In this document: positions 1,790 to 54,418 of the stretch, piece by piece
Numbering within the stretch: position 1 is the first letter of the stretch
Layout: every line of letters begins with the position of its first letter
Origin: Chiloscyllium plagiosum
Taxonomy: Eukaryota
Direction of reading: 5' to 3'
Length of the DNA stretch: 54,418 nt
NCBI RefSeq assembly: GCF_004010195.1
Contig: NC_057718.1
Location: 4,960,321 to 5,014,738, forward strand
Notes under the pieces: model-generated
Databases searched by the model: none
Seen by the model: only the letters and a program-made list of their open reading frames with translations
What the model was told of the DNA's origin: nothing
Made by a program: the position numbers and the translations under genes

Positions 1790-1958
1790 GGACATCAGAA
1801 ACAAAAACAGAAATTGCTGAGGAGAGTCAGCAGGCCTGGCTGTATCTGTGGAGAGAAATAACTGAGGAAGGGTGACCATACCCAAAATGTTGACTCTGAT
1901 TTCTCTCCACAAATGCTGCCAGACCTGCTGAGTTTCTCCAGTAATTTCTGTTTGTGTT
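1790..1958. mobile_element. Fold-back Penelope-like pLTR remnant with decayed hammerhead (ctgagga..aaaatgttga)
   Basis: Arms acagaaattgctgaggagagtcagcagg and cctgctgagtttctccagtaatttctgt are inverted. Related to the PLE end at 50003. Confidence 0.7.
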
Positions 1959-2154
1959 TGTGGTGTGAACAAGGTGTTTAACAATTAATCATCGGTTGGT
2001 CCCTTGTTGCTGCCTAAAGAGAGACTTTCTCTATGCCACTTGTTCACAACCTGAAAGACAGAGCAAGGTAATTTCAATATCCAGTCATGCCTCACTGTGT
2101 TCCCGACCAGATTTTGCCACACTGCCTACCATTACCCACATCACTCAGACCCCC

Positions 2155-2290
2155 ATCAGATTCTGATGAAGGGCTTATGCCCGAAATATCAACTCTCCTG
2201 CTCCTTGGAAGCTGCCTGACCTGTTGTGCTTTTCCAGCACCTCACTTTTTGACTCTGACTCTCCATCATCTGCAGTCCTCACTTTCTCTC
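2155..2290 (+). mobile_element. Penelope-like pLTR fragment (family A) with hammerhead motif
   Basis: ctgatga-agggcttatgccc-gaaatatc followed by the family A tail gctgcctgacctg..tctgcagtcctcactttctc. Confidence 0.85.
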
Positions 2291-2799
2291 GATCTGTCCA
2301 AAAGGAAATCACAACTTAGCATAGTCTGAGGCATTCATTTAAATGAAAGCCAAATTAAAATCCTAAATAATTAGAGGACTCTGAAAGAGACTCCTTGTGG
2401 AGCCCTCCATACCCCAGAGCTATCAGTCTCAACATTAAGTGCCCTCAGTCTTTACGACAGCTGTCCAAATCTTACAGCTTAACATTGACAGCCTCTTGGC
2501 TGCCAAGCAAACAGTCACTGGATACTTCAGCATGACTGGGATCATTTCAGTCAACAATTAACTACAATGTCTTGCAAATTGCAGATCCCTTAATTGATAA
2601 AATAGAGTTGAAAGGCCTATGACATTGTGCATCTGGTGTGAAAGTCTACAGGACATAAGTTGTCAATTTGAGTTCATTCAATTCTCGAACAAACTAAAAA
2701 TGAGGAACTCCGTCTCCCAAAAGGCTGAGAGGCAACTAGACATCTCCAGACTCTAGGACGATCAGGAAGGGGATGAAGAGATGTCTGTTTGTCTATTCA

Positions 2800-3025
2800 T
2801 AGGATGTTGGTGTCAACTCCCCAGTGAAGCAGCTGAGGCTACCTCATTGAATGTTTTTAAGGCAAAGATAATTTTATAAACAGTCCAGGAATTAAGGGTG
2901 ATAGTGAGAGGGTGGGTAAATGGAGCTGAGGCCATGAAAAGATTAGCCATGATCTTATTGAATGGTGGAGCAGGCTCGAGGGACCAGATGGCCTACACCT
3001 GCTCCGAGTTCCTATATTCTTATGT
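2800..3025 (+). mobile_element. CR1 LINE 3' end (second family)
   Basis: gccatgatcttattgaatggtggagcaggctcgagggaccagatggcctac..cctatattcttatg tail, same family as 10978 and 29790. Confidence 0.8.
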
Positions 3026-3114
3026 CACTGTCTGGACAAGCAATTGTTGCCCATCTCTAATTAATGCTGGTGATGAACTTTCTTCTTAAACCTCAAGGGG
3101 TTATTTAAAAATGG

Positions 3115-3291
3115 AATCAAACAACACCAGGTTATTGTCCAACAGGTTTATTTGAAATTACAAGCTTTCAGAGCGCTGCCCCTTCATCAGGCTTGGTATA
3201 AGCTTGCAATTTCAAATAAAGCGGTTGGACTATAAACTGGTGTCATTTTGACCTTGTCCACCCCAGTCCATCTCCGGCATCTCCACGTCAT
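3115..3291. mobile_element. Fold-back Penelope-like element (family B), hammerhead on minus strand
   Basis: acaccaggttattgtccaacaggtttatttgaaattacaagct is inverted as agcttgcaatttcaaataaagcggttggactataaactggtgt. Minus strand reads ctgatga-aggggcagcgctct-gaaagctt. Confidence 0.8.
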
Positions 3292-4560
3292 AAAATAAAG
3301 AGAAGGTAATGGAGTATTGTTACCCATCAGTCCCATCAAAATGAATGGTAGGAAAGGGAGTGAGGTTGAAATGTCCACCCTCCACTGGGAGGGAGCAAGA
3401 GTGGGCTAAAAGCAATCACTTTGTTATCCCATTTTTCCACTCACTCACTTCCATGAACAGAGATGTACATCATTGATCCTACTGGAAGCAGGTCTAGAGT
3501 TGGAAATGCTCTCTTTTGACAAAAGAATCATTTAAAAAGACTACACCTACAACCAAAAGGTCTTGAGAGTTCATAAAATAGAAGTTTCGCCTGAAAACGT
3601 TTTTTCAAGATACCATTACATATTCGAATGTTCAATGGCTTTAAAAACAGTCTAGCTGTACATTGGTGGAACCTTCCAGAATAGGAGGGAGGTCACTGCT
3701 GCTGCACCAACTCTCCACCTCAAAAGAGGGATCCTCTCTTCGCTTAGCATTCTCTCCCTGGTCCCTTACAAACATTAATGCCAAATATTAATAATATATA
3801 AATGGTAATGGCCTTATGAAATATCGATGAGAGATCTCAAAATATCCTCAAAATCTTTGTCAATACACAATGGCTTCATTAAGACTAGAGGTGAATGTAT
3901 TTCAAATGATTCTCAAGGAATTAGTGTTATGAGGTCAGAAAAATGAATTATTGGTATTTCATCAATCGATTGAATCAGTTTGTGATTCTAATGTGCATCT
4001 ATGGGGAAGCTATTAGACCTGGCTGTGGGATTTGCTCCTTAAATTTCTAAATATTATCTTTATTTTTCCAACTCCCACAGTCTTTTTTAATGAATGTGAT
4101 CACTGCTGATTACCATGACTGCTGACTCCCTGTCTGTATTCTGAGCTGAGGTTGCAATGACCCTGAATGTGGGTGAGAGCTAGATGCAGCTCATCGCTGT
4201 GTGAATTTGTCCAGTACAGTTATCACAGATTGTAAAAGCACTTCGGGATTAATCCTGGGATGAACAATCTCTCAGCTACTTTTCATTGCAACATGCAATC
4301 TCAACATGAAACATTTGGCTCAACTGGTCCATGTTGGCGTTTATCCTTCCCACAAGAAAATACTTGCAATTAATTTACTCTCTTTAGATTTAAATCTCTT
4401 TCACCCATTTTTCTTCTACCCTTCCCTGTTCAATCTAATCCCAAATGTTGACCGAACTTCTATCCCACCAATCCTGAGGGTGAATCTCACAACTCGTGTG
4501 TCTGAAGATGCTATTCCCAACCTCGGCCCTAGTTCTTTGATATTTAATCTTCTGTTCCAT

Positions 4561-5397
4561 GGGGCCAGGGAGTGGCAGGTGATGTTTAATTCAGATCAAT
4601 GTGAGGTGCTGCATTTCAGCAAGGCAAATCAGGTTAGGACTTATGTACTTAATAGTAGGGCCCTGGGGAGTGTTGTCAAATGACGATCTTGGAGTGCAGG
4701 TTCATAGCTCATTGAAAGTGGAGTCACAGGTAGACAGAGTGATCAAAAAAGTGGTTGGTATACTTCCCTTTATGGGTCAGTGCACTGAGTATAGGAGTTG
4801 AGAGGTCATGTTGCGGTTGTGCAGCACATTGGTTAGGCCACCTTTGGAATTCTGCATGCAGTTCTGGTCTCCCTGTTACAGGAAAGGTGCTGTTAAACTT
4901 AAAAGGGTGCAGAAAATATGGACAAGAAATTTGCCAGGGTTGGAGGGTATGAGCTATACGTAGGGGGTGAATAGGCTGGGGCTGTTTTTTTCTGGAGCAT
5001 CGGAGGATGAGAGATGACCTTATAGAGGTTTATTAAATCATGAGGGGCGTGGATAAGTTGAAATGGTCAAAGTCTTTTCCCCAGGGTAGGGGAGTCCAAA
5101 ATTAGAGGGCAAAGGTTTAAGGTGAGAGGGGACAGATATAACAGGGAAATAAGGGGAAACTTTTTCATGAAGAGGATGATGTGTATATGGAATGAGCTGC
5201 CAAAGGAAGTGATGGAGGCTGGTACAATTGCAACATTTAGAAGGCATCTGGATGGGTATATGAATAGGAAGGGCTTAGAGGGTTTTGGGCCAAGTGCTGG
5301 CAAATGGGACTAGATTAATTTAGGATATCTGGCCGGCATGGATGAGTTGGGCTGAAGAGTCTGTTTCTGTGCTGTACAGCTCTCTGACACTGTAACT
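4561..5397 (+). mobile_element. HER1/CR1 LINE, 5'-truncated
   Basis: WQVMFNSDQCEVLHF, DLGVQVHSSLKV and RHLDGYMNRKGLEG peptides plus the HER1 3' UTR. Confidence 0.92.
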
Positions 5398-5448
5398 GTG
5401 GTCAATACGTATTTGTAATAGAGTAAATTCCATTACTCCATGGATGAG

Positions 5449-5988
5449 TAGAGTCATAGAATTGTACAGCACGGAAAGAGACCCTTCGGTCCAACCCATC
5501 CATGCCAACCAGATATCCCAACACAATCTTGTCCCACCTGCCAGCACTTGGCCCATATCCCTCCAAACCCGTCCTATTCATATACCCATCCAAATGCCTT
5601 TTAAGTGTTGTCATTCTACTAGCCTCCACCACTTCCTCTGACAACTCATTCCATACACATACCACCCTCTGCTTGAAAATGTTGTCCCTTAGGTCCCTTG
5701 TTAAATCCTTCTCCCCTCACCTTAAACCAATGCCTTCTCATTCTGATATACACTCCCCGCGCCCCCAGGGAAAAGACCTTGTCTATTTATCCTATCCCTG
5801 CTCCTCATGATATTATAAATCTCTATAAGGTCACCCCACAGCTTCTGACACTCCAGGGAAAACAGCCCCAGCCTGTTCAGCCTCTCCCAGTAGCTCAAAT
5901 CCTCCAACCCTGGCAACTTTTCTAAATCTTTCAAGTTTCACAACATTCTTCCGATAGGAAGGAGGCCAGAATTGCATGCAATATTCCA
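5449..5988 (-). mobile_element. HER1/CR1 LINE 3' fragment
   Basis: agagtcataga tail; minus-strand EYCMQFWPPSYRK and WNELSEEVVEA peptides. Confidence 0.92.
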
Positions 5989-16099: not shown

Positions 16100-16460
16100 T
16101 AACCTGACACCGTCAGGAGGATGGTGATGTTTCACGTTGCCATGGGAACTGGCTGCTGACGAGCTTGGCTTGAATCCACGTCAGTAGCCAGCCAGTTATA
16201 GGCAAAGCTTCCTGTGGAAAGGCACATGGAAGTTGGTCTCTCGGTGTGTGTATGTGCGCGTGTGTTTGTGTGTGTCTGCGTGCACGTATGTGTGCGTGTG
16301 TGTGTGTGTGTACCTCTCAACAAAAGCTTCTTATTCCTTTGCCTGAAGGTGATGTCCCGGATGGTGCTATCCAGCTCTCCCCTTTCTATTGATGTTTGAG
16401 GTGATTGATTAACAAAGCCCAAGTTCACCACCTGCAATTCACATTCACATGGTAACCGCT
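16100..16460. promoter_or_regulatory. Candidate RFX/CRE regulatory element around a (TG)n tract
   Basis: X-box gttgccatgggaac at 16136-16149, half-CREs tgacg (16157) and ccacgtca (16176), catggtaac at 16448, TG repeat at 16244-16311. Confidence 0.45.
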
Positions 16461-16499
16461 CAGATTTTGCCTGAGCGTTCGAAATGCCTATTGAAAACT

Positions 16500-17142: not shown

Positions 17143-17505
17143 CTGCTGAGATTGTTGCCGTAGAGTCACAGGGAGATAACCCTGTGCAAAAAGAGGCCTC
17201 TCAGCCCATTATGTCCACTGCAGCAACAAAAGAACAATTTTTTTAAAGGCTGCCTTCCCATTCTAAGCCCCTTGACCAGTCCCTGGTCCATCGCATTGCA
17301 GATTACAAAGCTTCAAGGGCAGACCCAGGTCCCTTTCAAACAAAGGATGGGAATGTGGAAAATAAGCTGCCAAGTGGCCCCAGATTAGTAACTCACCTGG
17401 TATTCCAAAGAAGTCTCGTACCAGAGTCGAAACATTAACTCTGTTGCCCTTTTTACAGATGTGACAGACCTGCTGAGATTTTCCAGCACCTTCTGCCTTT
17501 AGATT

Positions 17506-20586: not shown

Positions 20587-20816
20587 GTCGAGAGTGTGGT
20601 GCTGGAAAAGCACAGCAGGTCAGGCAGCATCTGAGGAGCAGGAGAGTCGTTGTTTCGGGCGAAGCCCTTCATGAGACCCCCATTCCTGGTGAAGGGCTTT
20701 TGCCCGAAACGTCGATTTTCCTGCTCCTCGGATGCTGCCTGACCTGCTGTGCTTTTCCAGCACCACACTCTCGACTCTGATCTCCAGCATATGTAGTCCT
20801 CACTTGCTCCTACCTC
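20587..20816. mobile_element. Fold-back PLE element, family A, 13-bp TSD
   Basis: Inverted arms ~95 bp. TSD atatgtttctcaa at 20574-20586 and 20817-20829. Confidence 0.92.
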
Positions 20817-22280: not shown

Positions 22281-22474
22281 GAGAAAGTGAGGGCTGCAGA
22301 TGCTGGAGATTAGAATCAAAAGTCTGGTGCTGGAAAAGCACAGCAGGTCAGGCAGCATCCGACGAGCAGGAGAATCGACGTTTCGGGCAAAAGTCCTTCA
22401 TTCCCTGTCATTCCTGATGAAGAATTCTTGCCCGAAACATCAATTCTCCTGCTCCTCCGATGCTGCCTGACCTG
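22281..22474. mobile_element. Fold-back PLE element, family A, 15-bp TSD
   Basis: TSD cttgat(a/g)aagccatg at 22266-22280 and 22475-22489. Confidence 0.9.
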
Positions 22475-22849
22475 CTTGATGAAGCCATGCTGACTCAGCC
22501 CTGTTTTACCATGCAACTATTCTGCATTCTCATCCTTAGTAATGGATTCTAAAATCTTACCAATGACCGAGGTCAGGCTACCCAGCCTACAGTTTCCTGT
22601 CTCCCTCCGTCTTTAAGGTAGAGACCAGAGTATATTGTCTTTGGGCCAGGGATGCAAGGGACACAAGGTGAGAGTTGGGATGGGGGAAGTGGAGTTATGC
22701 TGTCTATTGCAGATGAAAGAGTTCCATGATTAGGAAAGGAGTGCGGAGGTGGCGGTGGGCTGGGTTGTTGAGCTCAGCAGATCAGACTGATGCCAGTAAC
22801 ATGGGGTTTGACCTGTATGCTGGCTGAGGGAAGACATAACTCGATACGG

Positions 22850-26755: not shown

Positions 26756-26964
26756 GAGAGTGTGGTGCTGGAAAAGCACAGCCAGTCAGGCAGCATCTGA
26801 GGAGCAGGAGAATCGATGTTTCGGGCATAAGCTGTTCATCAGGAATGAGTAAAGGGCTGACACCTGAATCGTCGATTCTTCTGCTCCTCAGATGCTGCCT
26901 AACCGGCTGTGCAACACCACACTCTTCGACTCTGATCTCCAGCATCTGTAGTCCTCACTTTCTC
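26756..26964. mobile_element. Fold-back PLE element, family A, 14-bp TSD
   Basis: TSD ctca(g/a)taaaacctg at 26742-26755 and 26965-26978. Confidence 0.9.
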
Positions 26965-27257
26965 CTCAATAAAACCTGCCAATGCTACAGAAATAATTGC
27001 CAACAAATTTAATCCCCACACAAGGAGGCAGCTTCATTGTCAGTGTATTAAGAGGGGAAATGCAAGTGGCTCAAGAAACAAGTTGATTAGAAACTGAGTA
27101 AAGGAGAGAAAGCCCAGTGAGAATTTGAGTTTGTCCTCACTTGAAGAAAACTATACTTTGTTTCCAACAGTCTCTGTTACAGTTGCAGCAGGAATGCTTC
27201 ACTTTCTTTTGGATTGCATATAAAGCAACCAGTTTTCTTTCGAGCATACTACTGACT

Positions 27258-32931: not shown

Positions 32932-33390
32932 GTTGAGAAGTGTGATGCTGGAAACGCACAGGTGGTCAGGTAGCATCTGAGGAGCAGGAGAGTCAACTTT
33001 GCGAGCATAAGCTCTTCAACAGGAATGAGCCTGCTCTCCTGTTCCTCAGATGCTGCCTGACTGGTTTTGCTTTTCCAGCACCATACTCATTGACTCTGAT
33101 CTCCAGCGTTTGCAGTCCACACTTTCTTCAGGTTTATTTGAAATCACAAGCTTTTTGTGCACAGCCCCTTCAGCAGATGAAGTGAGAGGGAAGCACACAG
33201 ACACAGGATTTATGGCATTTTACTCACACAGTCTGACACTTTTGATCACCTGTAGAGACTTATTATTCAACACTCCACTCACACTATTTGTCTGATTTTT
33301 GATCTCTCTGCCTTTGACCTCTATGCCCATGAATTCTGTGACTGTGTGTTTCTCTCACACTTCACCTGATGATAGGGTTACACTCTGAAA
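32932..33390. mobile_element. Two abutting fold-back PLE elements (family A 32932-33128; family B 33129-33390)
   Basis: Each has inverted arms. Family B hammerhead tcac-ctgatga-t-agggttacactct-gaaagctt-gtga at 33362-33398; the right arm runs on to ~33450. Confidence 0.8.
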
Positions 33391-33665
33391 GCTTGTGATT
33401 TTAAATAAACCTTTTGGACAAATACCTGGTGTTCTGTGACTTCTGACTTTATGAAGAGTACAGTAAGGGGCTGAGTACGCAACCTTGTGGGGCACCAGTG
33501 TTGAGGATTATGGTGGAGGAGGTGCTGTCACCTATACTTGCTGATTACGGTTTGTGGGTCAGGAAGTTGAGCATCTAGTTACAAAGGGGACAGCGAAGAT
33601 CTCGGTCTTGGAATCTGGTGATGATTTTTGAATTATGGTGTTGAAGGCGGAACGGTAGTCAATAT

Positions 33666-34307
33666 TAGTGAGTTTTGGGAAGATTTGTAACTCAGGTTGA
33701 GGTTTTGGATGTAAGTTTGCTTGCTGAGCTGGCAAGTCTGTTTTCAGACGTTTCGTCACTATACTAGGTAATATCATCAGTGAGCCTCCAGTGAAGCACT
33801 GGTGGTATGGACTGCTTTTTATTTATGTGTATAGATTTGCTTGGGCTGGTGATGTCATTTCCTGTGGTGATGTCATTTCCTGTGGTGATGTCATTTCCTG
33901 GTGGCCCCCCAGACCATTACCATTGCTCCCGGACCCCCATAGCGTTACTACCGTTCCCAGACCATAGTGTCATTTCCTGTGGTGAAAACACATACATCCT
34001 AGGACAAACCAACAGAGACATGCACTAGAATTCCTAGAAGCATGGCACTCCAACCGGAACTCTATCAACAAACACATTGACTTGGATCCCATTTTCCACC
34101 CCCTGTGAAAAACAACCGGAAATTACATTAGCACAGGAAATGACATCATAGGAAATGATATCACCAACCCAAGCAAACGTAAACACATAAATAGAAAGCA
34201 GGCCATACCACCAGTGCTTCGTCAGAGGCTCACTGATTATGTTATCTAGTATGGTGACAAAACGTCTGAAAATGAACCTTCCAATTCAGCGAGCAAACTT
34301 ACATCCT
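33666..34307. mobile_element. Fold-back Penelope-like element, family C, with GIY-YIG C-terminal remnant and 11-bp TSD
   Basis: ~200-bp inverted arms. Spacer encodes NTYILGQTNR..EFLEAWHSNRNSINKHIDLDPIF. TSD gtagtcaatat at 33655-33665 and 34308-34318. Confidence 0.9.
33744..33783 (-). ncRNA. Minimal type I hammerhead ribozyme motif (family C)
   Basis: uca-CUGAUGA-stem II-GAAACGUC-uga. The first stem II pair is mutated. Confidence 0.65.
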
Positions 34308-37160: not shown

Positions 37161-38212
37161 TTTAAGAACCTGGGAAAGGCTTGGAGGGAGTTGTTGTATA
37201 AGGCATTTAGCACCTGAAAGGGTTATCTGACATCACACAGAAAGCTCCTCCCATATGAAGGACTGTTCCTGAGAGGAGCTAAGTTCTCAGTTGTAAAACA
37301 GGTTCTAGCTCTCAGACCATGTTGCCAACTCTAATGTGTGCTAACAGTTAAATTGAGCCTGTGCAATGGATTACCATGTGACTTGACTGTAATATAACTA
37401 GCCATTAAGTACTATGTGAGAAAGCAGCTTTATATCTCAAGATTGGGCTTTGCTTCTATCAAAGACCTTGTTAGGGCATCCTTCCTCATTTGATATCAGT
37501 AACCATTCAGGAGGACTAATGGCAGTAAATCTAACCCAGGTATCATCGGTGGTTTCAGTAAATAGGCCCACCATGATGGCATTGAGGTATATTTGTGTCT
37601 AACCATAGCCAGTGAAATCCTATCAATGGCTTCTCTTCTTGCTCCCCCACTGTGATAGCTGGCAGTCCCCAAGAGTCTATTCTCAGTCCCCTCCTATTTC
37701 TCATCTCCATGTTGCCCCTTTGCTGAGACAGTCTGAACATGCAGTGCTGGTTAGCCATTTATGCTGATGACAGAGTGTAGCCTCATCATCCCCCCTCTTG
37801 TCTCCTGTATTTGGATGAGCAGAATATTCCACCAGGTGAATAGATTGAGAAGACCATTGTGCTTGGTCACCACCACAAACTCTGTTCCTGATCTACTGAC
37901 ACCATCTCTTTCCCTCAACTGAATCTGAGGCTGTCCTGGCTGTTTGCTGTCTTGGTGTCACACTTGATCTTAAGCTGAGCTTACAACCAGGTATCTGCTA
38001 AGGGGCAGCACACCTCCACCTCTGTAATGCTACCCAACTCTGTCCCTGCCCCACACCAGTGGTTACTGAAATCCATATCCATGTCTTAGTTGTCTCTGGA
38101 TTTGATTATTGCATCCCACTCCTGCCAGCCTCCCACTGCCACCCTCAATGAGCCTGGGATCATCTGAAACTCTGTCACTCTGTTCCTAGTTCACACCTTG
38201 TCCTGTTCACCC

Positions 38213-39450
38213 ACCAATCTCTTTGTTGGCTACGTAGAGCAGTTGATCTTCCGTAATTACACCGGCACCACTCCCCACCTCTTCCTCCGCTACGATGACT
38301 GCTCCCGCGAGGAGGTTGAGCAATTCATCAACTTCACCAACACATTCCACCCTGACCTTAAATTTACCTGGACCATCTCTGACACCTCCCTCCCCTTCCT
38401 GGACCTCTCCATCTCCATCAGTGACGACCGACTTGACACTGACATTTTCTACAAACCCACCGACTCCCACAGCTACCTGGATGACACCTCTTCCCACCCT
38501 ATCTCTTGCAAAAATGCCATCCCATATCCCCAATTCCTCCGCCTCCGCCGTATCTGCTCCCAGGAGAANNNNNNNNNNNNNNNNNNNNNNNNNNNNNNNN
38601 NNNNNNNNNNNNNNNNNNNNNNNNNNNNNNNNNNNNNNNNNNNNNNNNNNNNNNNNNNNNNNNNNNNNNNNNNNNNNNNNNNNNNNNNNNNNNNNNNNNN
38701 NNNNNNNNNNNNNNNNNNNNNNNNNNNNNNNNNNNNNNNNNNNNNNNNNNNNNNNNNNNNNNNNNNNNNNNNNNNNNNNNNNNNNNNNNNNNNNNNNNNN
38801 NNNNNNNNNNNNNNNNNNNNNNNNNNNNNNNNNNNNNNNNNNNNNNNNNNNNNNNNNNNNNNNNNNNNNNNNNNNNNNNNNNNNNNNNNNNNNNNNNNNN
38901 NNNNNNNNNNNNNNNNNNNNNNNNNNNNNNNNNNNNNNNNNNNNNNNNNNNNNNNNNNNNNNNNNNNNNNNNNNNNNNNNNNNNNNNNNNNNNNNNNNNN
39001 NNNNNNNNNNNNNNNNNNNNNNNNNNNNNNNNNNNNNNNNNNNNNNNNNNNNNNNNNNNNNNNNNNNNNNNNNNNNNNNNNNNNNNNNNNNNNNNNNNNN
39101 NNNNNNNNNNNNNNNNNNNNNNNNNNNNNNNCACTGATCCAGAATCTGGTTTCCAGCATCTGCAGTCATTGTTTTTACCTCGTTGATTTTAACCCTACTG
39201 CGAATCCTCTTGCAACGATGCCTGCCTTGAAGAAGTTTTCCTCCTCTCTCTACAAGAATCTCAGGGAGTCTCTCTCCCACTGCAACTCCCAGGTCATTTC
39301 CTCTGCCCTGAAAGCCTTTATTCCTGATGAAGGGCTTTTGCCCGAAACGTCGATTTCGAAGCTCCTCGGATGCTGCCTGAATTGCTGTGCTCTTCCAGCA
39401 TCACTGATCCAGAATCTAGTTTCCAGCATCTGCAGTCATTGTTTTTACCT
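38213..39450 (+). mobile_element. Penelope-like retroelement: RT fragment, gap (38569-39131), tandem pLTRs
   Basis: NLFVGYVEQ..FLRYDDC..HPDLKFTW..LPFLDL..FYKPTDSHSYLD..SSHP..CKNAIPY.QFLRLRRICS is a PLE RT. Direct repeat 39132-39180 = 39402-39450. Confidence 0.93.
39320..39355 (+). ncRNA. Minimal type I hammerhead ribozyme motif (family A, intact core)
   Basis: CUGAUGA 39324-39330, A-GGGC-UUUU-GCCC stem II, GAA-ACGU-C. Predicted cleavage after 39351. Stem I is weak. Confidence 0.75.
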
Positions 39451-40255
39451 CTGTGCCTCAGATCCCAGTTAAATAGTGCTTTAAAGATTCTCAGCCTAGT
39501 CTTTAAATTGGCCAATGGCTCTTCCCCCATCTCCTTAACCTTCTCCAAAGGCACACTCCTTCAAAGGTACAAGCCTCTGAGGTAGCTCCAATTCCAACTC
39601 TGAGGGGTCCTGCTTTAAACCACTGTGGTGTTGAAGACCATGCCTTTAATGCCTAGACCCAATGTTGTGCAGTTACTTATTCAACTCTTTAGCTCCCCCT
39701 TCAAACTGACCTCTCTGACCAAGCTTTGGACCTAAGGTCTGGCTCAGTATAAGCATGTTGCTTTGCAACCTTCCTATGGACCACCAGGGGATGTGTCATC
39801 TTTAATGGAGAGAGTTCAAAACCACTGGGTCGCTCTCTTTTGAGAACATTATAAATATTGCAGTGTGTTCTGTACATTTATTGCACATCCATGGAAATGA
39901 TTTCACTCTGAATATAGATTTACTGCATTCGAAAGAGCACAACGTGATTCTCAACCACCAAGAGATTCAGGCTGGGGTTAGATACAAAGTGTTTGATCTG
40001 AGATAATAACTTTCTTTTCTTTTTTCTTTTTTCTCCCTCTCTATCAATATGGTTGACACCCCCTTGCCTGTTTTCCTGTTTTTATTTCAGATTCCCACCA
40101 TCTTCTTTCCTGTTTATGTGAAAATAGATCCAGTCAACATTGTGGGAAGTGAAAATGGATTTCTCAGTCTTTGTTCTCATTCAAATCTCCGCACAGGCTA
40201 CAGATGCAGCAGGGTGAAAATGGGAGTGGGAGAAGGAGGAGATGGAGGGATTATG

Positions 40256-42553: not shown

Positions 42554-42794
42554 GTCGAAGATTGAGGTGCTGGAAAAGCACAGCAGATCAGGCAGCATCT
42601 GAGGAGCAGGAGAGTTGGCCGTTCGAGCATAAGCTCTTCATCAGCAAATGAGGAATCAGCTCATTCCTGATGACGGGCTTTTGCCCGAAATGTTGATTCT
42701 CCTCTTCCTCGGATGCTGCCTGACCTGCTATGCTTTTCCAGCACTATACACTTCGAATCTGATCTCCAGCATCTGCAGTCCTCACTTTCTCCAA
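42554..42794. mobile_element. Fold-back PLE element, family A, 10-bp TSD
   Basis: TSD gctggaagta at 42544-42553 and 42795-42804; ctgatga at 42667. Confidence 0.88.
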
Positions 42795-48142: not shown

Positions 48143-49300
48143 TGTCTCTAACTCTGTGCTGTCCCTGGTCTTGGAGTGTTTGATGGGGACAGTGTAGAGA
48201 GAGCTTTACTCTTATCTAATCCTGTGGTGTCCCTGTCCTGGGAATGTTTGATGGGGACAGTGTAGAGAGATAGGCGAAAGTGAATACTGCAGATGCTGGA
48301 GATTGGAGTCAAGAGTGAGGTGCTGGAAAAGCACAGCAGGTCAGGCAGCATCCAAGGAGTAAATAAATCAATGTTTCGGGCTAAAATCCTTCAGGACTAC
48401 CTGATGAAGGGCTTTTGCCTGAAACATTGATTTCCCTGCACCTCGGATGCTGCCTGACCTGCTGTGCTTTTCCAGTACCACATTCTTGACAGTGTAGAGG
48501 GAGCTTTAATCTGTATCTAACACCATACCGTCTCTGTCCTGGGAGTGTTTGATAGGGGGAGAGTGTAGATAGACCTTTACTCTGTATTTAACCCCATACT
48601 GCCACTGTCCTGGGATTGTTTGATGGGGACATTGTGGAGGGAGCTTTACTCTGTATCTAATCCCATGCTGTCCCTGTCCTGGGAGTATTTGATGGGGAAA
48701 GTGTAGAGAGAGCTTTACTCCGTATCTAACCCCATGCTGTCCCTGTCCTGGGATGGAGGGGGGACAGTGTAGAGGTAGCTTTACTCTGTATCTAACCACG
48801 TGTGTCCCTGTCCTGGGATGGGGTGGACAGTGTAGAGAGAGTTTTACTCTGTATCTAACACCGTACTGTCCCTGTCCTGGGAGTGTTTGATGGGGACAGT
48901 GTGGAGGGAGCTTTACTCTGTATCTAACCACATGCTGTCCCTGTCCTGGGAGTGTTTGATGGGGACAATGTGGAGGGAGCTTTACTCGGTATCTAACCGC
49001 ATGCTATCCCATTCCTGGGTTGGGGTGGACAGTGTAGAGTGAGCTTTACTCTGGATCTAACCCTGTGCTGTCCCTTTCCTGGGAGTGTTTGATGGAGACA
49101 GTGTAGAGGAAGTTTTATTCTGTATTTAATCCTGGACTGTCCCTATGCTGGGAGTGTTTAATGGGGGGAAGTATAGATGGAGCTTTACTCTGTATCTAAC
49201 CCCATGTTGCCCCTATTCTGGGATGGGTGAAACAGTGGAGAGGTAGCTTTATTCTGCATCTAACCTTGTGCTGTCCCTGTCCTGGAATAGTGTAGAAGGA
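48143..49300. repeat. 69-bp tandem repeat (~14 units, some ~64 bp)
   Basis: Unit ctaaccccgtgctgtccctgtcctgggagtgtttgatggggacagtgtagagggagctttactctgtat. Confidence 0.97.
48271..48487. mobile_element. Fold-back PLE element, family A, inside the 69-bp array
   Basis: Duplicated gacagtgtagag at 48256 and 48488; ctgatga at 48401. Confidence 0.88.
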
Positions 49301-50002: not shown

Positions 50003-50708
50003 CAGAAACAAAAACAGAAGTTGCTGGAAAAGCTCAGCCAATCTGGCAGCATTTGTGACCAGAAATCAGAGTTAACATTTTGGGTCCAGTGATCGTTGAT
50101 GGTAGCTGGGGAAATGTCAGTCTATATGCAGAAGACAGGGTGAGGGGGTAAGGAGTAAACACTGGGTGGGGATAGAACCCAAAGAGAGAGAGAAGAACAG
50201 TTGGACAGACAAAGAAATGGATAACAATCTGGCTTGGAGGGTGATTAACTATTAATGGAGACTGTTAGTGGCTAACAATAGATGGTGTGTAATGGCGGAC
50301 TAAATGATAACAAGGAGAAAGTGAGGATGCTGGAGATCAGAGCTGAAAATGTTGCTGGAAAAGCGCAGCAGGTCAGGCAGCATCCAAGGAGCAGGAGAAT
50401 CGACGTTTCGGGCATGAGCCCTTCTTCAGGAATCTTCAGGCTCATGCCCGAAACGTCGATTCTCCTGCTCCTTGGATGCTGCCTGACCTGCTGCACTTTT
50501 CCAGCAACACATTTTCAGTAAATGATAACAGGGCCTTGTGTGTGTGGTTGGGTGCTGGGACACGGTGAGTTCAGGCCCTAAAAGTATTGAACTTGATATT
50601 GAGTCTGGAGGGCTGCAGGGTCCCCAAGCAGAAAATGAGGTTCTTCCAAGTTTGCACTGAGCTTCACTGGAGCACTGCAGCAAGCCTGAGACAGAGATGT
50701 TGGCCAGT
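50003..50708 (-). mobile_element. Penelope-like element 3' end (GIY-YIG C-terminus + pLTR)
   Basis: Minus strand ISVSGLLQCSSEAQCKL../LIFCLGTLQPSRLNIKFN. Confidence 0.85.
50313..50518. mobile_element. Young fold-back PLE element, family A, 12-bp TSD, intact hammerhead on minus strand
   Basis: TSD taaatgataaca at 50301-50312 and 50519-50530. Minus strand ctgaaga-agggctcatgccc-gaaacgtc (50402-50429). Confidence 0.93.
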
Positions 50709-50758
50709 ACCATGTAGTTTTGTCTTCTTATTTAGGGAAGGATTACTTGCCACAGAAG

Positions 50759-50897
50759 TTAAAAATCACACAACACCAGGTTAAAATCCAACATGTTTAA
50801 TTGGAAGCACTAGCTTTCGGAGTGCTGCTCCTTCATCAGGTGGTTGTGTGATTTTTAACTTTGTACACTCCAGTCCAACACTGGCATTTCCAAATCA
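50759..50897. mobile_element. Short PLE element, family B, 12-bp TSD
   Basis: TSD ttgcca(c/t)agaag at 50747-50758 and 50898-50909. Inverted gttaaaaatcacacaac / gttgtgtgatttttaac. Confidence 0.85.
50808..50842 (-). ncRNA. Minimal type I hammerhead ribozyme motif (family B, intact)
   Basis: cac-CUGAUGA-A-GGAG..CUCC-GAA-AGCU-A-gug. Stem I cac/gug, palindromic stem III AGCU. Confidence 0.78.
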
Positions 50898-50999: not shown

Positions 51000-52030
51000 A
51001 CCGCCTGTTTACTGATACAAACCTCTTTCAGTTCCTCAGTTTAACAAGTCCCTTGTTAGCCTTGATTTTCCATATCTTTATCTGAGAAGATAAATATAAG
51101 TGATTGTTTTGTTTTTCAACCATTTCCCTGCTCTCTTGTACAAATTATCTTGTCCTCACCAGTAATGCATTCACATTTTTCTGAGTTAATGTTTTCCTTT
51201 TCACATAATTAAAGAAACTTTTACACTGCTTTTATGTTTCTCATTAGCCTGCATTCATATTCTCTTTTCCTTTTTAGTTTTCAGTTGCTTGGTGATTCAT
51301 TGCTGTGTTCTAAATTGTTCCTCATCCTCAGGCTTACCACTTTTTCTGGTGTCCTTATAAATTATTTCAATTGATTTAATTTGATATTTCACTTCCTTTT
51401 GTTATCCACAGTTCATTCAACTTTCACACTGTGGTTTGTGACTTGCAGCTATATATTTCTACTGTAGACCATGTAATCCCTCACTACATACTGCCACTGC
51501 CTGTCTACTTGAAATATTTTTGCATATTTTTCCAGTGAACCGTAGCCAACTTGCTGGTCATACCCTTGTAGTTTGAGAAGAAAAGTGTGGCAATGGAAAA
51601 AGCACAGCAGGTCAGGCAGCATCTGAGGAGCAAGGGAGTTGACATTTTGGGCATAAACCCTTCATCCTATATCCTCATAGTATCCCCACTTCAGATTTAA
51701 AACGTAAGCTTCAGAATGAACTGTGTTATATTCAGACTTAATGTGGAATTATACTATGGTCACTATCCCTAAGACGCCTTTTGCAGCAAGATTATGAATT
51801 AACTCCTTTTTATATGACATAACACAAAAACTAAAATAGCTTCATCCTTAGTTGGTTTTTCAACATGCTGTTCCAGGAATCAATCCTGTACAGTACCTAC
51901 AGTATTTGTGTTGATTTGGTTATTATGGTCTGTATGCAAATTAAAGTTTCCCAGCGTTACTGTATCACATATGTTATGTGGATCCCTAATTTTATAAATT
52001 ATACCATGCCTGACATTACCAGTACTATTT
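51000..52030 (-). mobile_element. Old CR1 ORF2 endonuclease/linker remnant with a PLE arm at ~51575-51667
   Basis: Minus strand VRHGII..IRD..TVTLGNFNLHTD..NQI. Confidence 0.65.
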
Positions 52031-52270
52031 GATTGCAAAAAACATTTTACAGTGATTTTTTTTCCTTCATTCAATCGCGGGATGAGGGCACCGCTATCTG
52101 GGATAACATTTATTGTCCATCCCAAATTGGCCAAATGGCAGTTCAGGGTCAACTCCATTGCTGTGGCCAAGTAGGCCAGACCAGGTCAAGGTAGCAGCTT
52201 CCTTCCTAAAAGGGCAGTAGTAATCCAGATGGGTTTTTCCAACAATCGACAATGGTTTCATGGTTGTTGT

Positions 52271-52765
52271 CAGAGAGACCGAGGGGTTCAGGTACATAGT
52301 TCTTTGAAAGTTGTGTCACAGGTGGACAGGGTGGTTAAGAAGAGGTTTAGAATGCTTGCCTTCAATGCTCAGACCATTGAGTATAGTAGTTGGGACATCA
52401 TGTCACGGTTGTACAGAACATTGGTGAAACCACTTTTGGAATACTGTGTACAGTTGTTGTCTCCCTGCTATAGGAAGGATGTAATTAAATTGGAGAGATT
52501 TAAGAAAAGATTTACCAGGATAGTGCCAGGAATGGAGGGTTTGAGTTGTAAGGAGAGGCTGAATAGACTGGGACATTTTTCTGGAGCATAGGAGGTTGAG
52601 GGGTGACATTATAGAGGTTTATAAAATCATGCCAGACATAGATAAGGTGAATAGCAAAGGTCTTTTCCCAAGGGGGGGAGGGGATGTTTTAAATGTGAGA
52701 GGAGAAAGATTTACAAGGGACCTGAGGGGCAACCTTTTCATGCAGAAGGTGGTTCATATGGGGAA
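52271..52765 (+). mobile_element. HER1 LINE fragment
   Basis: GVQVHSSLKV..LYRTLVKPLLEYCVQ..KRFTR peptide. Confidence 0.92.
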
Positions 52766-52780
52766 CGATGTGTATGTATA

Positions 52781-53172
52781 AAGTCCAACAGGTTTATTTG
52801 GAAGCACTATCTTTCAGAGTGCTGCTCCTTCATCACTGAGCTGTGGAGTGTAAGATCATAAGACACAGAACTTATAGCAAAAGATTGTAGTGTCATAGAA
52901 CATAGAACATTACAGCACAGTACAGGCCCTTTGACCCTCGATGTTTCGCCGACCTGTGGAACCAAGCTGAAGCCCATCTAAAAGATGAAAGACTGAACAG
53001 TCCAGGTTTGTTCAATATATCATTTCAGTTTCATGACACTGTAATCTTTTACTATAAATTCTGTGTCTTATGATCTTATACTTTATAGCTACATGATGAA
53101 GGAGCAGTGCTCCGAAATCTAGTGCCTCCAAATAAACCTGTTGGACTATAACCTGGTGTTGTTTGATTTTTT
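52781..53172. mobile_element. Fold-back PLE element, family B, with a CR1 3' end in the spacer
   Basis: ~115-bp inverted arms with decayed hammerheads; agaacatagaaca tail at 52897. Confidence 0.85.
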
Positions 53173-53184
53173 ATTAACCCCATG

Positions 53185-54061
53185 AAGTACATCCTGTATA
53201 CAAAAAGCAGGACAAATCCAACTCAGTCAATTACTGCCCCATCAGTCTACTCTTGATCATCAGTAAAGTGATGGAAGGTGTCATCAACAGTGCTATCAAG
53301 CAGCACCTGCTCAGTGACGCCCAGTTTGGGTTCTGCCAGGGCCACTCAGCTCCTGACCTCATTACAACCTTGGGTCAAACATGGACAAAAGAGCTGAATT
53401 TCAGAGGGGAGGGGAGAGGGACAGCCCTTAACATCAAGGCTGCATTCAGCCGAGTGTGGCATCAAAGACCCCTAGCAAAACTGGAATCAATGGATATCAG
53501 GGGGCAAACTCTCTCCTGGTTAGAATTACACCTGATATATAGGGAGATGGTTGTGGTTGTTGGAGGTCAGTTATCTCAGCTCCAGGACATCTCTGCAAGA
53601 GTTCCTTAGGGTAGTGTCCTAGGTGCAACCTTCTTCAGCTGCTTCATCAATGACCTTCCCTTCATCGTAAGGTCAGAAGTGGGGATGTTCGCTGATGACT
53701 GCACAAGTTCAGCACCATTCGTGACTCTTCAGATACTGAAGCAGTCCATGTTCAGGTACGCCAATATCCAAGCTTGGATGAAAATGTGTGGCAAATAACA
53801 TTTGCACCATACAATTGCCAGGCAGTGACCATCTTCAGTTAAAGAGAATCATCCCTTGGCATTTAATGGCATTACCATTACATTACCATGAATTCCCACT
53901 AAGGGGTACCATTGATAAGAAACCGTACTCACCATATAAATACAATGATTACAAGAGCAGGTCAGAGACTGAAAATCCTGCAGCGAGTGACTGACCTCCT
54001 GACTCCTGAGAGTCTGTCCACCATCTACAAGGCACAAGTCAGGAGTATGATGGAATACTGC
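53185..54061 (+). mobile_element. CR1/L2-group LINE RT fragment
   Basis: NYCPISLL..QFGFCQGHSAPDLIT..LNIKAAFSRVWH..FADD..YKAQVRSMMEY. Confidence 0.9.
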
Positions 54062-54418
54062 TTAAAAATGTGTTGCTGGAAAAGCGCAGCAGGTCAGGCA
54101 GCATCAAAGGAGAAGGAGAATCGACATTTCGGGCATAAGCCCTTCTTCAGGAATGAGGAGGGTGTGCCAAGCAGGCTAAGATAAAAGGTAGGGTGGAGGG
54201 ACTTGTGGGAGGGGCGTTGGGAATGCGATAGGTTAAGGTGAGGGTGATAGGCCGGAGAGGGGGTGGGGGCGGAGAGGTCGAGAAGAAGATTACAGGTCAA
54301 GAAGGCGGTGGTGAGTTCGAAGGTTGGGACTGAAATAAGATGCGGGGAGGGGAAATGAGGAAGCTGGAGAAATCTGCATTCATCCCTTATGGTTGGAGGG
54401 TTCCTAGGCGGAAGATGA
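54062..54418 (-). mobile_element. Penelope-like element 3' end (family A pLTR joined to GIY-YIG C-terminus)
   Basis: Minus strand IFRLGTLQP*GMNADFSSF, then ctgaaga-agggcttatgccc-gaaatgtc. This links family A arms to a coding PLE. Confidence 0.9.

What the first reader, a model, noticed from the sequence alone, without database searches (positions are those of the whole stretch)
1790..54418. Swarm of fold-back, hammerhead-bearing Penelope-derived mini-elements from several families
Seen: about 12 insertions of 140-640 bp made of inverted arms, eight with readable 10-15 bp TSDs (20587, 22281, 26756, 33666, 42554, 48271, 50313, 50759). They fall into families with distinct flanking sequences but the same motif: CUGA(U/A)GA, one extra base, stem II, GAA, a palindromic tetranucleotide (ACGU or AGCU), then the cleavage base. 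Family A is physically linked to PLE coding sequence at 38213-39450 and 54062. Established: Penelope-like pLTRs carry minimal type I hammerheads thought to work as dimers, and inverted pLTRs are known in Penelope. Inference: these are independently retrotransposed, non-coding, potentially two-stranded ribozyme cassettes at about one per 4-5 kb. Inside an intron they could cut pre-mRNA or form long dsRNA hairpins.
Basis: partly seen in the sequence, partly recalled or inferred. Interest (0 to 1): 0.72.

Follow-up and report, generated by a model that had tools for sequence, protein, structure and literature searches.

The report
Truncated fold-back Penelope copies with hammerheads
The window is littered with short, mostly decayed tail-end copies of Penelope-like jumping genes, many inserted as head-to-head pairs and each starting with a minimal hammerhead ribozyme motif, which is a real but already described kind of element.

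Summary
I count 13 fold-back insertions (139-642 bp) and about 6 single units or fragments. All eight claimed target-site duplications reproduce. Four families (A-D) carry it, and A, B and D are tied to reverse-transcriptase/GIY-YIG coding sequence.

It is a known kind: minimal hammerheads of Penelope-like elements (PLEs), plus the known PLE insertion signature of heavy 5' truncation, an adjacent inverted copy and a 30-40 bp tail at one end. This scan had already noted the same thing in at least eight other windows of this genome.

The "two-stranded ribozyme cassette" reading is not met here. Only 3 motifs are canonical, no fold-back has both arms intact, and read-through RNA would bury the motif in a hairpin of about 80 bp.

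What I add from 160 family A genome copies:
- In 22 of 24 fold-backs exactly one arm carries the tail.
- Left arms are anchored at a canonical outer end.
- Family A copies mostly stop within a few bases of the hammerhead's 5' edge.

These fit priming of reverse transcription from both target strands. No cleavage footprint was found.

The parts
1792..1966 (.). Family C fold-back (arms 68 nt, 82%). Its hammerhead at 1862-1889(+) is decayed at CpGs (GAA to AAA, ACGT to ATGT).
2159..2287 (+). Family A single unit, long form with tail. Hammerhead 2163-2190: core intact, helix III tetranucleotide ATAT. A 10-nt inverted bit lies just upstream.
3105..3290 (.). Family B fold-back (arms 3119-3167 / 3200-3248, 86%). 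Hammerhead 3162-3190(-) with AGCT. The right arm carries the ~38-nt tail. The outer limits are approximate.
17428..17490 (+). Old family C-like unit fragment (weak alignment, score 54).
20587..20816 (.). Family A fold-back; TSD ATATGTTTCTCAA (13/13). Left arm short form, right arm with tail. Both hammerheads are mutated (CTCATGA; CTGGTGA).
22282..22476 (.). Family A fold-back; TSD TGAT(A/G)AAGCCATG (12/13). Left arm with tail; right arm ends early, at unit ~63.
26756..26966 (.). Family A fold-back; TSD A(G/A)TAAAACCTG. Left arm short form, right arm with tail.
32939..33129 (.). Family A fold-back abutting a family B element. No clear TSD. Stem II is the compensated variant GAGC/GCTC.
33130..33443 (.). 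Family B fold-back (arms 86 nt, 79%). Hammerhead 33366-33394(+): core intact, first stem II pair A-U.
33666..34307 (.). Family D fold-back (arms 163 nt, 84%); TSD GTAGTCAATAT (11/11). Inside it lies the end of a retroelement ORF (33986-34108). Hammerhead 33747-33780(-): core intact, stem II weakened.
38207..38566 (+). PLE reverse-transcriptase fragment (RT motif region) with a 7-residue deletion at the YIDD site. It is followed by an N run at 38569-39131.
39132..39181 (+). Copy of the family A tail region (98% to 39402-39451) directly after the N run.
39320..39451 (+). Family A unit with canonical hammerhead 39324-39351 and tail.
42554..42794 (.). Family A fold-back; TSD GCTGGAAGTA (10/10). 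Left arm short form, right arm with tail. The right hammerhead core is intact but has ATGT.
48268..48487 (.). Family A fold-back inserted in a 69-bp satellite; TSD GACAGTGTAGAG (12/12). Left arm with tail, right arm short form.
50006..50085 (-). Family A fragment (outer part of a unit).
   Evidence: (pair I19)
50313..50518 (.). Youngest family A fold-back (arms 99%); TSD TAAATGATAACA (12/12). Left arm with tail, right arm short form. Canonical hammerhead 50402-50429(-); the (+) arm lacks the CUGANGA box.
50759..50897 (.). Family B fold-back; TSD TTGCCA(C/T)AGAAG (11/12). The left arm is a full short-form unit with canonical hammerhead 50811-50839(-). The right arm is only the last ~20 nt plus the tail.
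51594..51666 (-). Family A single unit: decayed, 5' truncated within the CUGANGA box.
52779..53171 (.). Family B fold-back whose arms (123 nt, 84%) run about 70 nt upstream of the hammerheads, with a 126-nt spacer. Both hammerheads are mutated.
54070..54418 (-). Family A unit (54070-54154; hammerhead core intact, ATGT). On the minus strand it is preceded by ~210 nt of PLE 3'UTR and the ORF C-terminus (..IFRLGTLQP*GMNADFSSF). It is cut by the window end.

Best explanation
These are dead-on-arrival products of target-primed reverse transcription by Penelope-like elements (PLEs) of a shark-type genome.

Each copy is the 3'-terminal module of a PLE transcript. In family A the module has these parts:
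- about 4 nt (ATTC) that form the 5' strand of helix I;
- a 28-nt minimal type I hammerhead: CUGAUGA, one unpaired base, a 4-bp stem II, GAA, the palindrome ACGU, and C as the cleavage base;
- about 57 nt of conserved sequence;
- one of two alternative 3' ends, about 35 nt apart. The longer one includes the 'tail'.

The element's endonuclease makes staggered nicks 10-17 bp apart, which become the target-site duplication. If one strand primes cDNA synthesis, a single unit results. If both strands prime on the same kind of RNA, two cDNAs grow towards each other and are joined head to head. That gives a fold-back whose outer ends are both reverse-transcription start sites, almost always one of each kind.

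The hammerhead is cargo of the template. After insertion it decays, fastest at its CpGs.

Shown here: the anatomy, the TSDs, the link to RT/GIY-YIG coding sequence, the one-tail rule, the anchoring of the outer ends, and the clustering of 5' ends at the hammerhead.

Inferred, from published in vitro work on an Anolis PLE: priming on both strands and two start sites.

Not shown: any ribozyme cleavage, or any effect on host RNA.
For: Anatomy and TSDs in the window.

Copy numbers in the window's genome. The control is the pattern read backwards, and it gave 0 in every case:
- intact family A 33-mer: 1,014;
- 24-mer core: 36,754;
- 32-mer downstream anchor: 41,706;
- family B 33-mer: 2,538.

PLE link:
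- The RT fragment is 90% identical to P0001 (RVT_1 above cut-off) and 58% to P0038 residues 425-549.
- RVT_1 matched 10 of the 11 long homologues scanned at E <= 0.0013 and all 11 at E <= 0.01, 7 of them above Pfam's cut-off. A C-terminal GIY-YIG match was found in 7 of 11.
- tblastn places that ORF's last ~150 residues, in sense, 205-235 nt upstream of the hammerhead in 8 of 18 longer copies.
- Family D: the ORF tail matches RVT_1-type proteins.
- Family B: 1 of 20 sampled loci has a PLE-like ORF end about 700 nt upstream.

Architecture of 60 copies with an exact hammerhead (my curation): 17 single, 24 fold-back, 18 longer, 1 masked.
- In 22 of 24 fold-backs exactly one arm has the tail. Single copies split 8 long to 9 short, so about half mixed would be expected if the ends were independent.
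- All left arms start at a canonical outer end. They vary at the inner end: unit 1-6 in 13, 11-18 in 2, 23-29 in 3, 56 or beyond in 6.

Unbiased sample of 100 arms. The 5' end of homology lies:
- at -7..+6 in 53;
- at -8 or beyond in 24;
- inside the unit in 22;
- in an N run in 1.

Literature:
- Minimal hammerheads with the extra base, G10.1-C11.1 and a palindromic 15.2-16.2, and paired motifs on opposite strands 100-700 bp apart (PMC4209133, Results and Discussion read).
- An inverted 5'-truncated copy, and a 30-40 bp tail often at one end only (PMC8557442, passages).
- A purified PLE protein cleaves and extends both strands and starts at two adjacent internal sites that bracket the tail; the hammerhead is not needed for insertion in vitro (PMC11167929, main text read).
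Against: - No Rfam hammerhead model matches, even at E <= 10. The call rests on motif grammar and the published descriptor.
- Every GIY-YIG match is just under Pfam's cut-off, and Pfam finds nothing in the window's own 133-aa fragment.
- The N run at 38569-39131 hides the join between the RT fragment and the unit at 39324.
- Plain random 5' truncation does not explain why family A copies stop so sharply at the hammerhead's 5' edge. Family B does not show this: 12 of 20 run 160 nt or more further upstream.
- Two copies (window 2163 and L023) have only a 10-17 nt inverted bit at the inner side, which looks more like snap-back.
- One fold-back (L007) has tails on both arms, and two (L028, L059) are unclear.
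- My classification of the 60 loci is by eye, with script help.
Confidence: 0.8

Rival explanations
1. The family A minis are not mere truncations. They are copies of a discrete short RNA that begins 0-4 nt before the hammerhead, perhaps from an internal initiator-type promoter, and that contains the reverse-transcriptase entry sites. That would make them a SINE-like, self-propagating parasite of the PLE machinery. This reading is compatible with the best explanation for how they insert.
For: - 5' ends cluster at -7..+6 in 53 of 99 readable arms, with only 22 truncated inside.
- None of 24 left arms, which were not selected for reaching the hammerhead, runs more than about 12 nt beyond it.
- D. 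virilis Penelope has an internal TATA-less LINE-like promoter with Inr and DPE (PMC2377424, passages).
- In the Anolis PLE the RNA needed for insertion lies just downstream of the hammerhead (PMC11167929).
Against: - No RNA 5' end was seen: the lay of raw RNA reads lists no place where molecules begin, and 265 reads run on past the edge into PLE 3'UTR. That library is 3'-biased single-cell poly(A) RNA, so it is a poor test.
- The subfamilies seen as minis also occur as longer copies with an ORF (e.g. L034).
- The Inr match is recalled, not tested.
- Family B lacks the sharp edge.
Confidence: 0.25
2. The fold-backs arise by snap-back. The first cDNA folds on itself and primes its own second strand, so the inverted arm is a copy of the same cDNA rather than a second priming event.
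For: Short inner-only inverted bits at window 2150-2173 and in L023. Arms of young copies are nearly identical (99% at 50350-50509).
Against: - Partial left arms are anchored at the outer, canonical 3' end and are missing their inner part (L010, L017, L026, L033, L041, L047; also window 50759-50897). That is the reverse of what snap-back predicts.
- The two outer ends are the two known kinds of 3' end in 22 of 24.
Confidence: 0.1
3. The elements act on host RNA: as ribozyme cassettes active on either strand that cut intronic pre-mRNA, or as long dsRNA hairpins feeding small-RNA or editing pathways.
For: - The RNA of 50314-50518(-) folds at -162.5 kcal/mol, z = -21.
- Family units are present in poly(A) RNA reads in both orientations.
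- 3 motifs in the window are canonical.
Against: - No fold-back has two canonical motifs.
- In the hairpin fold the hammerhead is paired with the other arm.
- The published activity of such motifs is low or protein-dependent.
- No reads lay on the unique flanks of this locus in the run that laid reads.
- No piles of read ends were seen at the cleavage site (table 6: none).
Confidence: 0.05
4. They are fold-back DNA transposons or MITEs that merely resemble PLE ends.
For: Terminal inverted arms, flanking direct repeats and small size.
Against: - TSDs vary from 10 to 17 bp, not a fixed short length.
- The arms are the 3' end of an RT-coding element.
- The same unit occurs singly, with TSDs and no inverted partner.
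- The arm junctions differ from copy to copy.
Confidence: 0.02

Closest known systems
Minimal hammerheads (min-HHR) in the pseudo-LTRs of metazoan Penelope-like elements (Cervera and De la Pena 2014, PMC4209133; Results and Discussion read)
   Same: - Catalytic boxes, an unpaired base between positions 9 and 10.1, and a G10.1-C11.1 pair.
- No helix III loop, but a palindromic tetranucleotide.
- A short helix I.
- Thousands of dispersed copies, most outside full elements.
- Pairs on opposite strands 100-700 bp apart.
- Consensus families with compensatory changes.
   Different: - Stem II of families A, B and C is 4-5 bp, against the 6-8 bp described for Schistosoma and Drosophila.
- In family A the motif lies ~205-235 nt after the ORF stop.
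- My two searches found no paper describing these shark families. Repbase could not be consulted.
Canonical endonuclease-positive PLE insertion unit (Craig et al. 2021, PMC8557442, passages read; they cite Evgen'ev and Arkhipova 2005 and Arkhipova 2006, which I did not read)
   Same: High 5' truncation, an adjacent inverted 5'-truncated copy giving inverted repeats, and a 30-40 bp tail often at one end only.
   Different: - Here both copies are cut down to ~85-125 nt, so the whole insertion is a small hairpin.
- The one-tail rule is quantified (22 of 24).
- Tandem pseudo-LTR junctions of the mini unit are rare: 10 head-to-tail junctions genome-wide for the probe used.
In vitro insertion by the Anolis Poseidon element PAc (Frangieh et al. 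2024, PMC11167929, main text read)
   Same: - Both DNA strands are cut and extended.
- Two adjacent internal start sites bracket the tail.
- The start lies in an AC-rich region about 110 nt after the hammerhead cut site. Here the short-form end falls in ..CCAGCACCACACTC.., about 58-62 nt after the cut site.
- The hammerhead is dispensable for insertion.
   Different: - In PAc the ORF starts inside the hammerhead. In shark family A the reading frame from that ATG stops after 17 codons, and the motif lies downstream of the ORF.
- No biochemical data exist for the shark elements.
Animal non-LTR retrozymes (Cervera and De la Pena 2020, PMC7229834, search listing only; Li et al. 2026 preprint, 10.64898/2026.07.22.740005, Results part 1 read)
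   Same: Non-coding, hammerhead-bearing, related to PLE terminal regions; monomers are dispersed through genomes.
   Different: Retrozymes are defined by head-to-tail tandem repeats that yield circular RNAs. Here head-to-head pairs and single units dominate, and head-to-tail junctions are rare.
Internal promoter of D. virilis Penelope (Schostak et al. 2008, PMC2377424, passages read)
   Same: A transcription start inside the terminal repeat, near the hammerhead region, would explain a fixed 5' end.
   Different: Nothing about transcription starts was tested here. The resemblance of TCATTCC to an initiator is recalled.

Membership tests
PLE minimal hammerhead (min-HHR) | Conserved boxes CUGANGA and GAA in the right order and spacing | tested here: met
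   17 pattern hits against 6.0 +/- 2.6 in shuffles. Parsed in 9 of the 10 best motifs; the tenth has AAA for GAA. 36,754 exact family A cores in the genome, control 0.
PLE minimal hammerhead (min-HHR) | [quoted passage not shown] | tested here: met
   Present in all 10 parsed motifs: A, C or T. Listed as a family trait in PMC4209133.
PLE minimal hammerhead (min-HHR) | Stem II closed by G10.1-C11.1, with compensatory changes between families | tested here: met
   - Stem II by family: A GGGC/GCCC, B GGAG(C)/(G)CUCC, C GGGU/ACCC; D reads GUUACC/GGUGAC when its two arms are compared.
- Within family A: GAGC/GCTC 1,387 copies, against 1,426 and 1,340 single changes and 36,754 unchanged. That is 27 times the 52 expected if the changes were independent.
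- The doubles are largely one subfamily, so this counts as about one evolutionary event.
PLE minimal hammerhead (min-HHR) | No helix III loop; a palindromic tetranucleotide (15.1-16.1) allowing a dimer | tested here: met
   ACGT in families A and D, AGCT in B; palindromic in 7 of 10 parsed motifs, and CpG-decayed to ATGT in the other 3. Dimer formation itself was not shown: cofold of 39316-39362 does not predict the ACGU helix.
PLE minimal hammerhead (min-HHR) | Self-cleavage after position 17 | not testable with these tools
   - No pile of RNA ends at the site, in a library ill-suited to show one.
- Insertion junctions at the first base after the site: 2 of 24 left arms, but only 1 of 22 internal truncations in the unbiased sample.
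- Peaks at units 29 and 21 in the junction probe both coincide with TC microhomology (hand tally of the 100 listed of 444).
Rfam hammerhead families | Score against a curated covariance model | tested here: not met
   0 matches at gathering score and none among the 24 matches at E <= 10. These models include a helix III that the minimal form lacks.
Endonuclease-positive Penelope-like element | A single ORF with reverse transcriptase followed by a C-terminal GIY-YIG endonuclease | tested here: inconclusive
   - RVT_1 in 11 of the 11 long homologues scanned (E <= 0.01), 7 above the cut-off.
- C-terminal GIY-YIG in 7 of 11, at E 2e-4 to 1.6e-3, all 19-22 bits against a cut-off of 22.6.
- The window itself holds only an RT fragment (Pfam: 0 families) and an ORF C-terminus.
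Endonuclease-positive Penelope-like element | Insertion signature: strong 5' truncation, an adjacent inverted 5'-truncated copy, a 30-40 bp tail at one end, and a TSD | tested here: met
   - Window: 13 fold-backs and 8 TSDs. Exactly one arm carries the tail in all 8 fold-backs where I read both outer ends: 3105, 20587, 22282, 26756, 42554, 48268, 50313 and 50759.
- Genome: 22 of 24 fold-backs.
- Tail length is ~35 nt in family A and ~38 nt in B.
Non-LTR retrozyme | Head-to-tail tandem repeats, each with a hammerhead | tested here: not met
   None in the window (TRF). The head-to-tail junction probe gave 10 hits genome-wide, against 444 for a head-to-head junction probe of similar length.
Fold-back DNA transposon / MITE | Terminal inverted repeats with a TSD of fixed short length, and no retroelement homology | tested here: not met
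   TSDs are 10-17 bp and variable. The arms are PLE 3' ends.

The most novel reading that the evidence does not exclude
The strict pairing of one tailed and one untailed end, the anchoring of partial arms at those ends, and the sharp common stop a few bases before the hammerhead may record a concerted reaction. In it, the two strands of one staggered cut are extended from the two adjacent start sites of the same short RNA species, about 90-125 nt long, which begins at helix I of the hammerhead, perhaps from an internal initiator. Family A minis would then be a self-contained, SINE-like replicating module of the PLE. They would also be a natural read-out of PLE integration chemistry, which has so far been seen only in vitro.
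Probability: 0.3. Interest if true: 0.55.

Novelty: new member of a known kind. Interest (0 to 1): 0.27.

Why it matters
For annotation, it explains a large share of the short hairpins, the miRNA-like Rfam noise and the 'hammerhead' motifs in this genome as PLE debris. At least 41,706 exact copies of one 32-mer exist, so they should not be read as ribozyme genes or miRNA precursors.

For transposon biology, such genomes hold tens of thousands of natural insertion junctions. These can test the still poorly known PLE integration mechanism: priming on both strands, two start sites, and where the template begins. Few other sources offer this.

No case for a host function was found.

Tried and rejected
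- Rfam at gathering score and at E <= 10 found no hammerhead. Long hairpins hit miRNA models far below their cut-offs.
- Pfam on the window's RT fragment and on the family B-linked ORF of L080 found no family.
- RNA runs: no RNA holder listed.
  - Of the four runs laid, X22 laid nothing (no test).
  - X7 and X1 are contigs of uncertain kind.
  - X21 reads lie only on the two repeats, and 99% run on into unlike sequence, so they come from other copies.
  - No begin/end pile was reported.
- Cleavage footprint. I asked whether arms start at the first base after the cleavage site.
  - 2 of 24 looked promising.
  - A junction probe peaked at units 29 and 21 (hand tally of the 100 listed of 444). 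Both peaks sit on the only two TC dinucleotides in range, which suggests microhomology with the other arm's ..TTC start.
  - The unbiased sample gave 1 of 22. I dropped this as evidence.
- Cofold of an intact motif as a homodimer does not return the ACGU helix. This is uninformative for a 4-bp helix.
- Tandem retrozyme arrays: rejected.
- MITE reading: rejected.
- An orthologous empty-site test could not be run, because the single lay was used on RNA. Only paralogous empty sites were seen: the satellite unit, and a LINE sequence in L039 compared with L015.
- Whether the window is intronic was not settled. Pfam on 93 of 155 ORFs of 75 aa or more gave only LINE RT pieces, a weak PSF3_N match and an Arrestin_N match inside a satellite.
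- The search of earlier findings 'near' returned nothing.
- Supplementary figures of PMC4209133, which hold the motif alignments, were not opened.

Full report
**What is there.**

The window is G000:C9:4960321-5014738, in a 3.56-Gb genome. The closest proteins to its coding fragments come from sharks and rays. It is repeat-rich and contains two N runs, 13740-13948 and 38569-39131.

The repeat finder lists 19 inverted pairs. Twelve belong to hammerhead-bearing elements, and a thirteenth (50759-50897) has too short a second arm to be listed. The other seven pairs are:
- LINE 3' ends (5084-5758, 30579-31529);
- a SINE pair (16919-17628);
- two pairs inside the 33666 element;
- one pair linking a family A fragment at 50020-50052 to the 50313 element.

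Besides the fold-backs there are these single units or fragments:
- 2159-2287;
- 39320-39451;
- 51594-51666;
- 54070-54154;
- 50006-50085;
- 17428-17490.

That is roughly one element per 3 kb.

**The motif.**

Rfam finds no hammerhead, at gathering score or at E <= 10. The hairpins only draw sub-threshold miRNA matches.

The loose pattern CTGANGA-N4-30-GAAA occurs 17 times, against 6.0 +/- 2.6 in shuffles.

| Family | Tetranucleotide | Stem II | Helix I (3-4 pairs) |
|---|---|---|---|
| A | ACGU | GGGC/GCCC | GAUU/AUUC |
| B | AGCU | GGAG(C)/(G)CUCC | GUG(A)/(U)CAC |
| C | AUGU (decayed) | GGGU/ACCC | not readable (2 of the first 8 positions pair) |
| D | ACGU | GUUACC/GGUGAC (from comparing its two arms) | UGA/UCA |

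Cervera and De la Pena list four traits of PLE minimal hammerheads: consensus families with compensatory changes, the base between positions 9 and 10.1, the G10.1-C11.1 pair, and the palindromic 15.2-16.2 positions (PMC4209133, Results and Discussion). These motifs show all four.

Within family A the compensated stem GAGC/GCTC has 1,387 genomic copies. The two single changes have 1,426 and 1,340, and the unchanged form 36,754. That is 27 times the number expected under independence. Most doubles share one loop variant, so this is essentially one subfamily founder.

**State of preservation.**

Of 17 family A arms in the window:
- 2 are canonical (39324+, 50429-);
- 3 keep the core but read ATAT or ATGT where ACGT stood;
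- 12 are mutated or truncated.

With family B's 50839-, three motifs in the window are canonical. Decay is fastest at CpGs. The genome holds 36,754 exact copies of the 24-mer up to GAAA, but only 1,014 of the 33-mer that also spans ACGTCGATTC.

No fold-back in the window has two canonical motifs, and none of the 24 sampled in the genome does. A pair of exact 33-mers 5 nt apart does exist elsewhere (C1:153732036/153732074).

**Link to Penelope-like elements.**

- Window 38207-38566 translates to a fragment 90% identical to P0001 (RVT_1 above cut-off). It is 58% identical to residues 425-549 of P0038, with 7 residues missing at the YIDD site.
- RVT_1 was found in 11 of 11 long homologues scanned. 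A C-terminal GIY-YIG match was found in 7 of 11, always just under Pfam's cut-off.
- P0038 ends ..RLIFKLGTLAPNGINERFSFA. The minus strand at 54418 reads IFRLGTLQP*GMNADFSSF, about 210 nt before the hammerhead of 54070-54154.
- In the genome, 8 of 18 longer family A copies carry the same ORF end in sense, 205-235 nt upstream of the motif.
- Family D's element holds an ORF tail that matches RVT_1-type proteins.
- For family B, 1 of 20 sampled loci shows a PLE-like ORF end about 700 nt upstream.
- The join at 38569-39131 cannot be read because of the N run.

**Insertion anatomy.**

Family A units have two alternative 3' ends about 35 nt apart. The short form ends about 86-90 nt after the first C of CUGAUGA; the long form ends at about 122. 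In family B the tail is about 38 nt.

In the window, every fold-back where both outer ends can be read has the tail on exactly one arm. These are 3105, 20587, 22282, 26756, 42554, 48268, 50313 and 50759.

I then took the first 20 listed places on each of three contigs that hold the exact family A 33-mer (L001-L060). I classed them with scripts and by eye:
- 17 single units;
- 24 fold-backs;
- 18 longer copies running into PLE 3'UTR or ORF;
- 1 masked by N.

In 22 of the 24 fold-backs exactly one arm has the tail. L007 has two, and L028 and L059 are unclear. Single copies split 8 long to 9 short, so independent ends would give about half mixed.

Partial left arms always keep a canonical outer end and lack the inner part. 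Their inner ends lie at unit 1-6 in 13, 11-18 in 2, 23-29 in 3, and at 56 or beyond (or tail only) in 6. That is what two cDNAs primed from the two target strands would leave, and the opposite of snap-back. Only window 2150-2173 and L023 show a small inner-only inverted bit.

**Published background.**

All of this is the published PLE signature. [quoted passage not shown]

Frangieh et al. showed that a purified PLE protein:
- cuts and extends both strands;
- starts at two adjacent internal sites that bracket the tail;
- does not need the hammerhead for insertion.

They also found that this hammerhead cleaves only with protein present (PMC11167929, main text).

**The sharp 5' edge.**

I took an unbiased sample: the first 100 places listed, of 41,706, for a 32-mer downstream of the motif. 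The 5' end of homology lies:
- at -7..+6 relative to the first C of CUGAUGA in 53 arms;
- at -8 or beyond in 24 (19 of all 100 were classed as longer copies);
- inside the unit in 22;
- in an N run in 1.

Single copies typically begin (A)TTC|CTGATGA. That is the 5' strand of helix I.

Random truncation does not predict this. A discrete RNA 5' end does. The bases TCATTCC resemble an initiator (recalled), and D. virilis Penelope has an internal Inr/DPE promoter (PMC2377424, passages). No start was tested. Family B does not share the edge: 12 of 20 extend 160 nt or more upstream.

**Does the ribozyme cut?**

I found no evidence either way. The one informative RNA run is X21, single-cell poly(A) raw reads. 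It laid 2,594 reads on the two repeats only, and 99% run on into unlike sequence. No place was reported where molecules begin or end.

I looked for arms beginning at the first base after the cleavage site:
- 2 of 24 left arms;
- peaks at units 29 and 21 in a junction probe (hand tally of the 100 listed of 444);
- only 1 of 22 internal truncations in the unbiased sample.

Both probe peaks coincide with TC microhomology to the other arm's start. I do not count this as support.

Read-through RNA of the youngest fold-back folds into a hairpin of about 80 bp (-162.5 kcal/mol, z -21) that pairs the hammerhead with the other arm.

**Comparison and verdict.**

These elements work like, and pass the sequence-level tests for, PLE minimal hammerheads and PLE insertion units. 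They fail the tests for Rfam hammerhead families, for tandem retrozymes (10 head-to-tail junctions genome-wide against 444 for the head-to-head probe), and for MITEs.

Two searches found no paper on these shark families. A 2026 preprint counts retrozymes in one cartilaginous fish (Results part 1).

Earlier notes of this scan reached the same verdict on eight other windows of this genome. I re-derived it here independently. I add the counts for the one-tail rule, the outer-end anchoring and the 5' edge.

The finding is correct and ordinary. Its residual interest lies in using such junctions to read PLE integration chemistry.

Noticed in passing
window 50759-50839 (minus strand); family B units generally: Family B units carry AAUAAA or AUUAAA about 10 nt after the cleavage site. 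In raw poly(A) RNA reads, 435 reads show a T run (that is, a poly(A) tail on the sense strand) joined right after ..CCUGUUGGACUAU, where the genome reads AACCTGG. Sense-oriented family B copies therefore seem to serve as real polyadenylation sites in some transcripts. The number of loci or molecules behind the reads is unknown.
   Followed up: partly
window 48488-49285 and ORF 48509-49003(-): A 69-bp satellite (11.8 copies) whose minus-strand ORF matches Pfam Arrestin_N (E 7.8e-11, residues 65-104). This is odd for a tandem repeat. It is followed by an 18-copy array of a 32-bp unit at 49341-49916.
   Followed up: no
window 16135-16518(-): Weak PSF3_N (GINS subunit) match, E 4.2e-5 and below the cut-off, next to a GT microsatellite. 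It could be a host exon. Whether the window is intronic was not settled.
   Followed up: no
window 38569-39131; loci L024, L027, L144, L146: N runs sit exactly where PLE internal sequence would be. In L027 the run ends 4 nt before the hammerhead. They look like masking rather than assembly gaps, and they hide the RT-to-unit join in the window.
   Followed up: no
window 1899-1966, 17440-17490 against the family A tails: Families A and C share a near-identical stretch, GATGCTGCC(T/A)GACCTGCTG(T/A)G..TT..CCAGC, downstream of otherwise different hammerheads. It may be the reverse-transcriptase recognition element. The short-form 3' end falls in the AC-rich bases just after it.
   Followed up: no
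loci L015 and L043; L129 and L130: Two pairs of loci carry the same insertion with the same flanks. L015/L043 lie inside a LINE RT-coding sequence and share the TSD ATTTGATAAGGTTC. L129/L130 lie 415 nt apart. These are copies made after insertion, or repeated hits on one site.
   Followed up: no
genome junction probe: Several head-to-head junctions join an arm ending at the cleavage site to a 6-7 nt inverted piece of the very start of the unit (AGGAAT, ATCAGG), as if the stretch of the hammerhead between them were skipped.
   Followed up: no
window 5084-5758 and 30579-31529: LINE 3' ends (coding ..WNELPEEV..FKRHLD..-like tails) also occur as inverted pairs with arms of 174-249 nt. Head-to-head arrangement is therefore not unique to the PLE debris here.
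   Followed up: no
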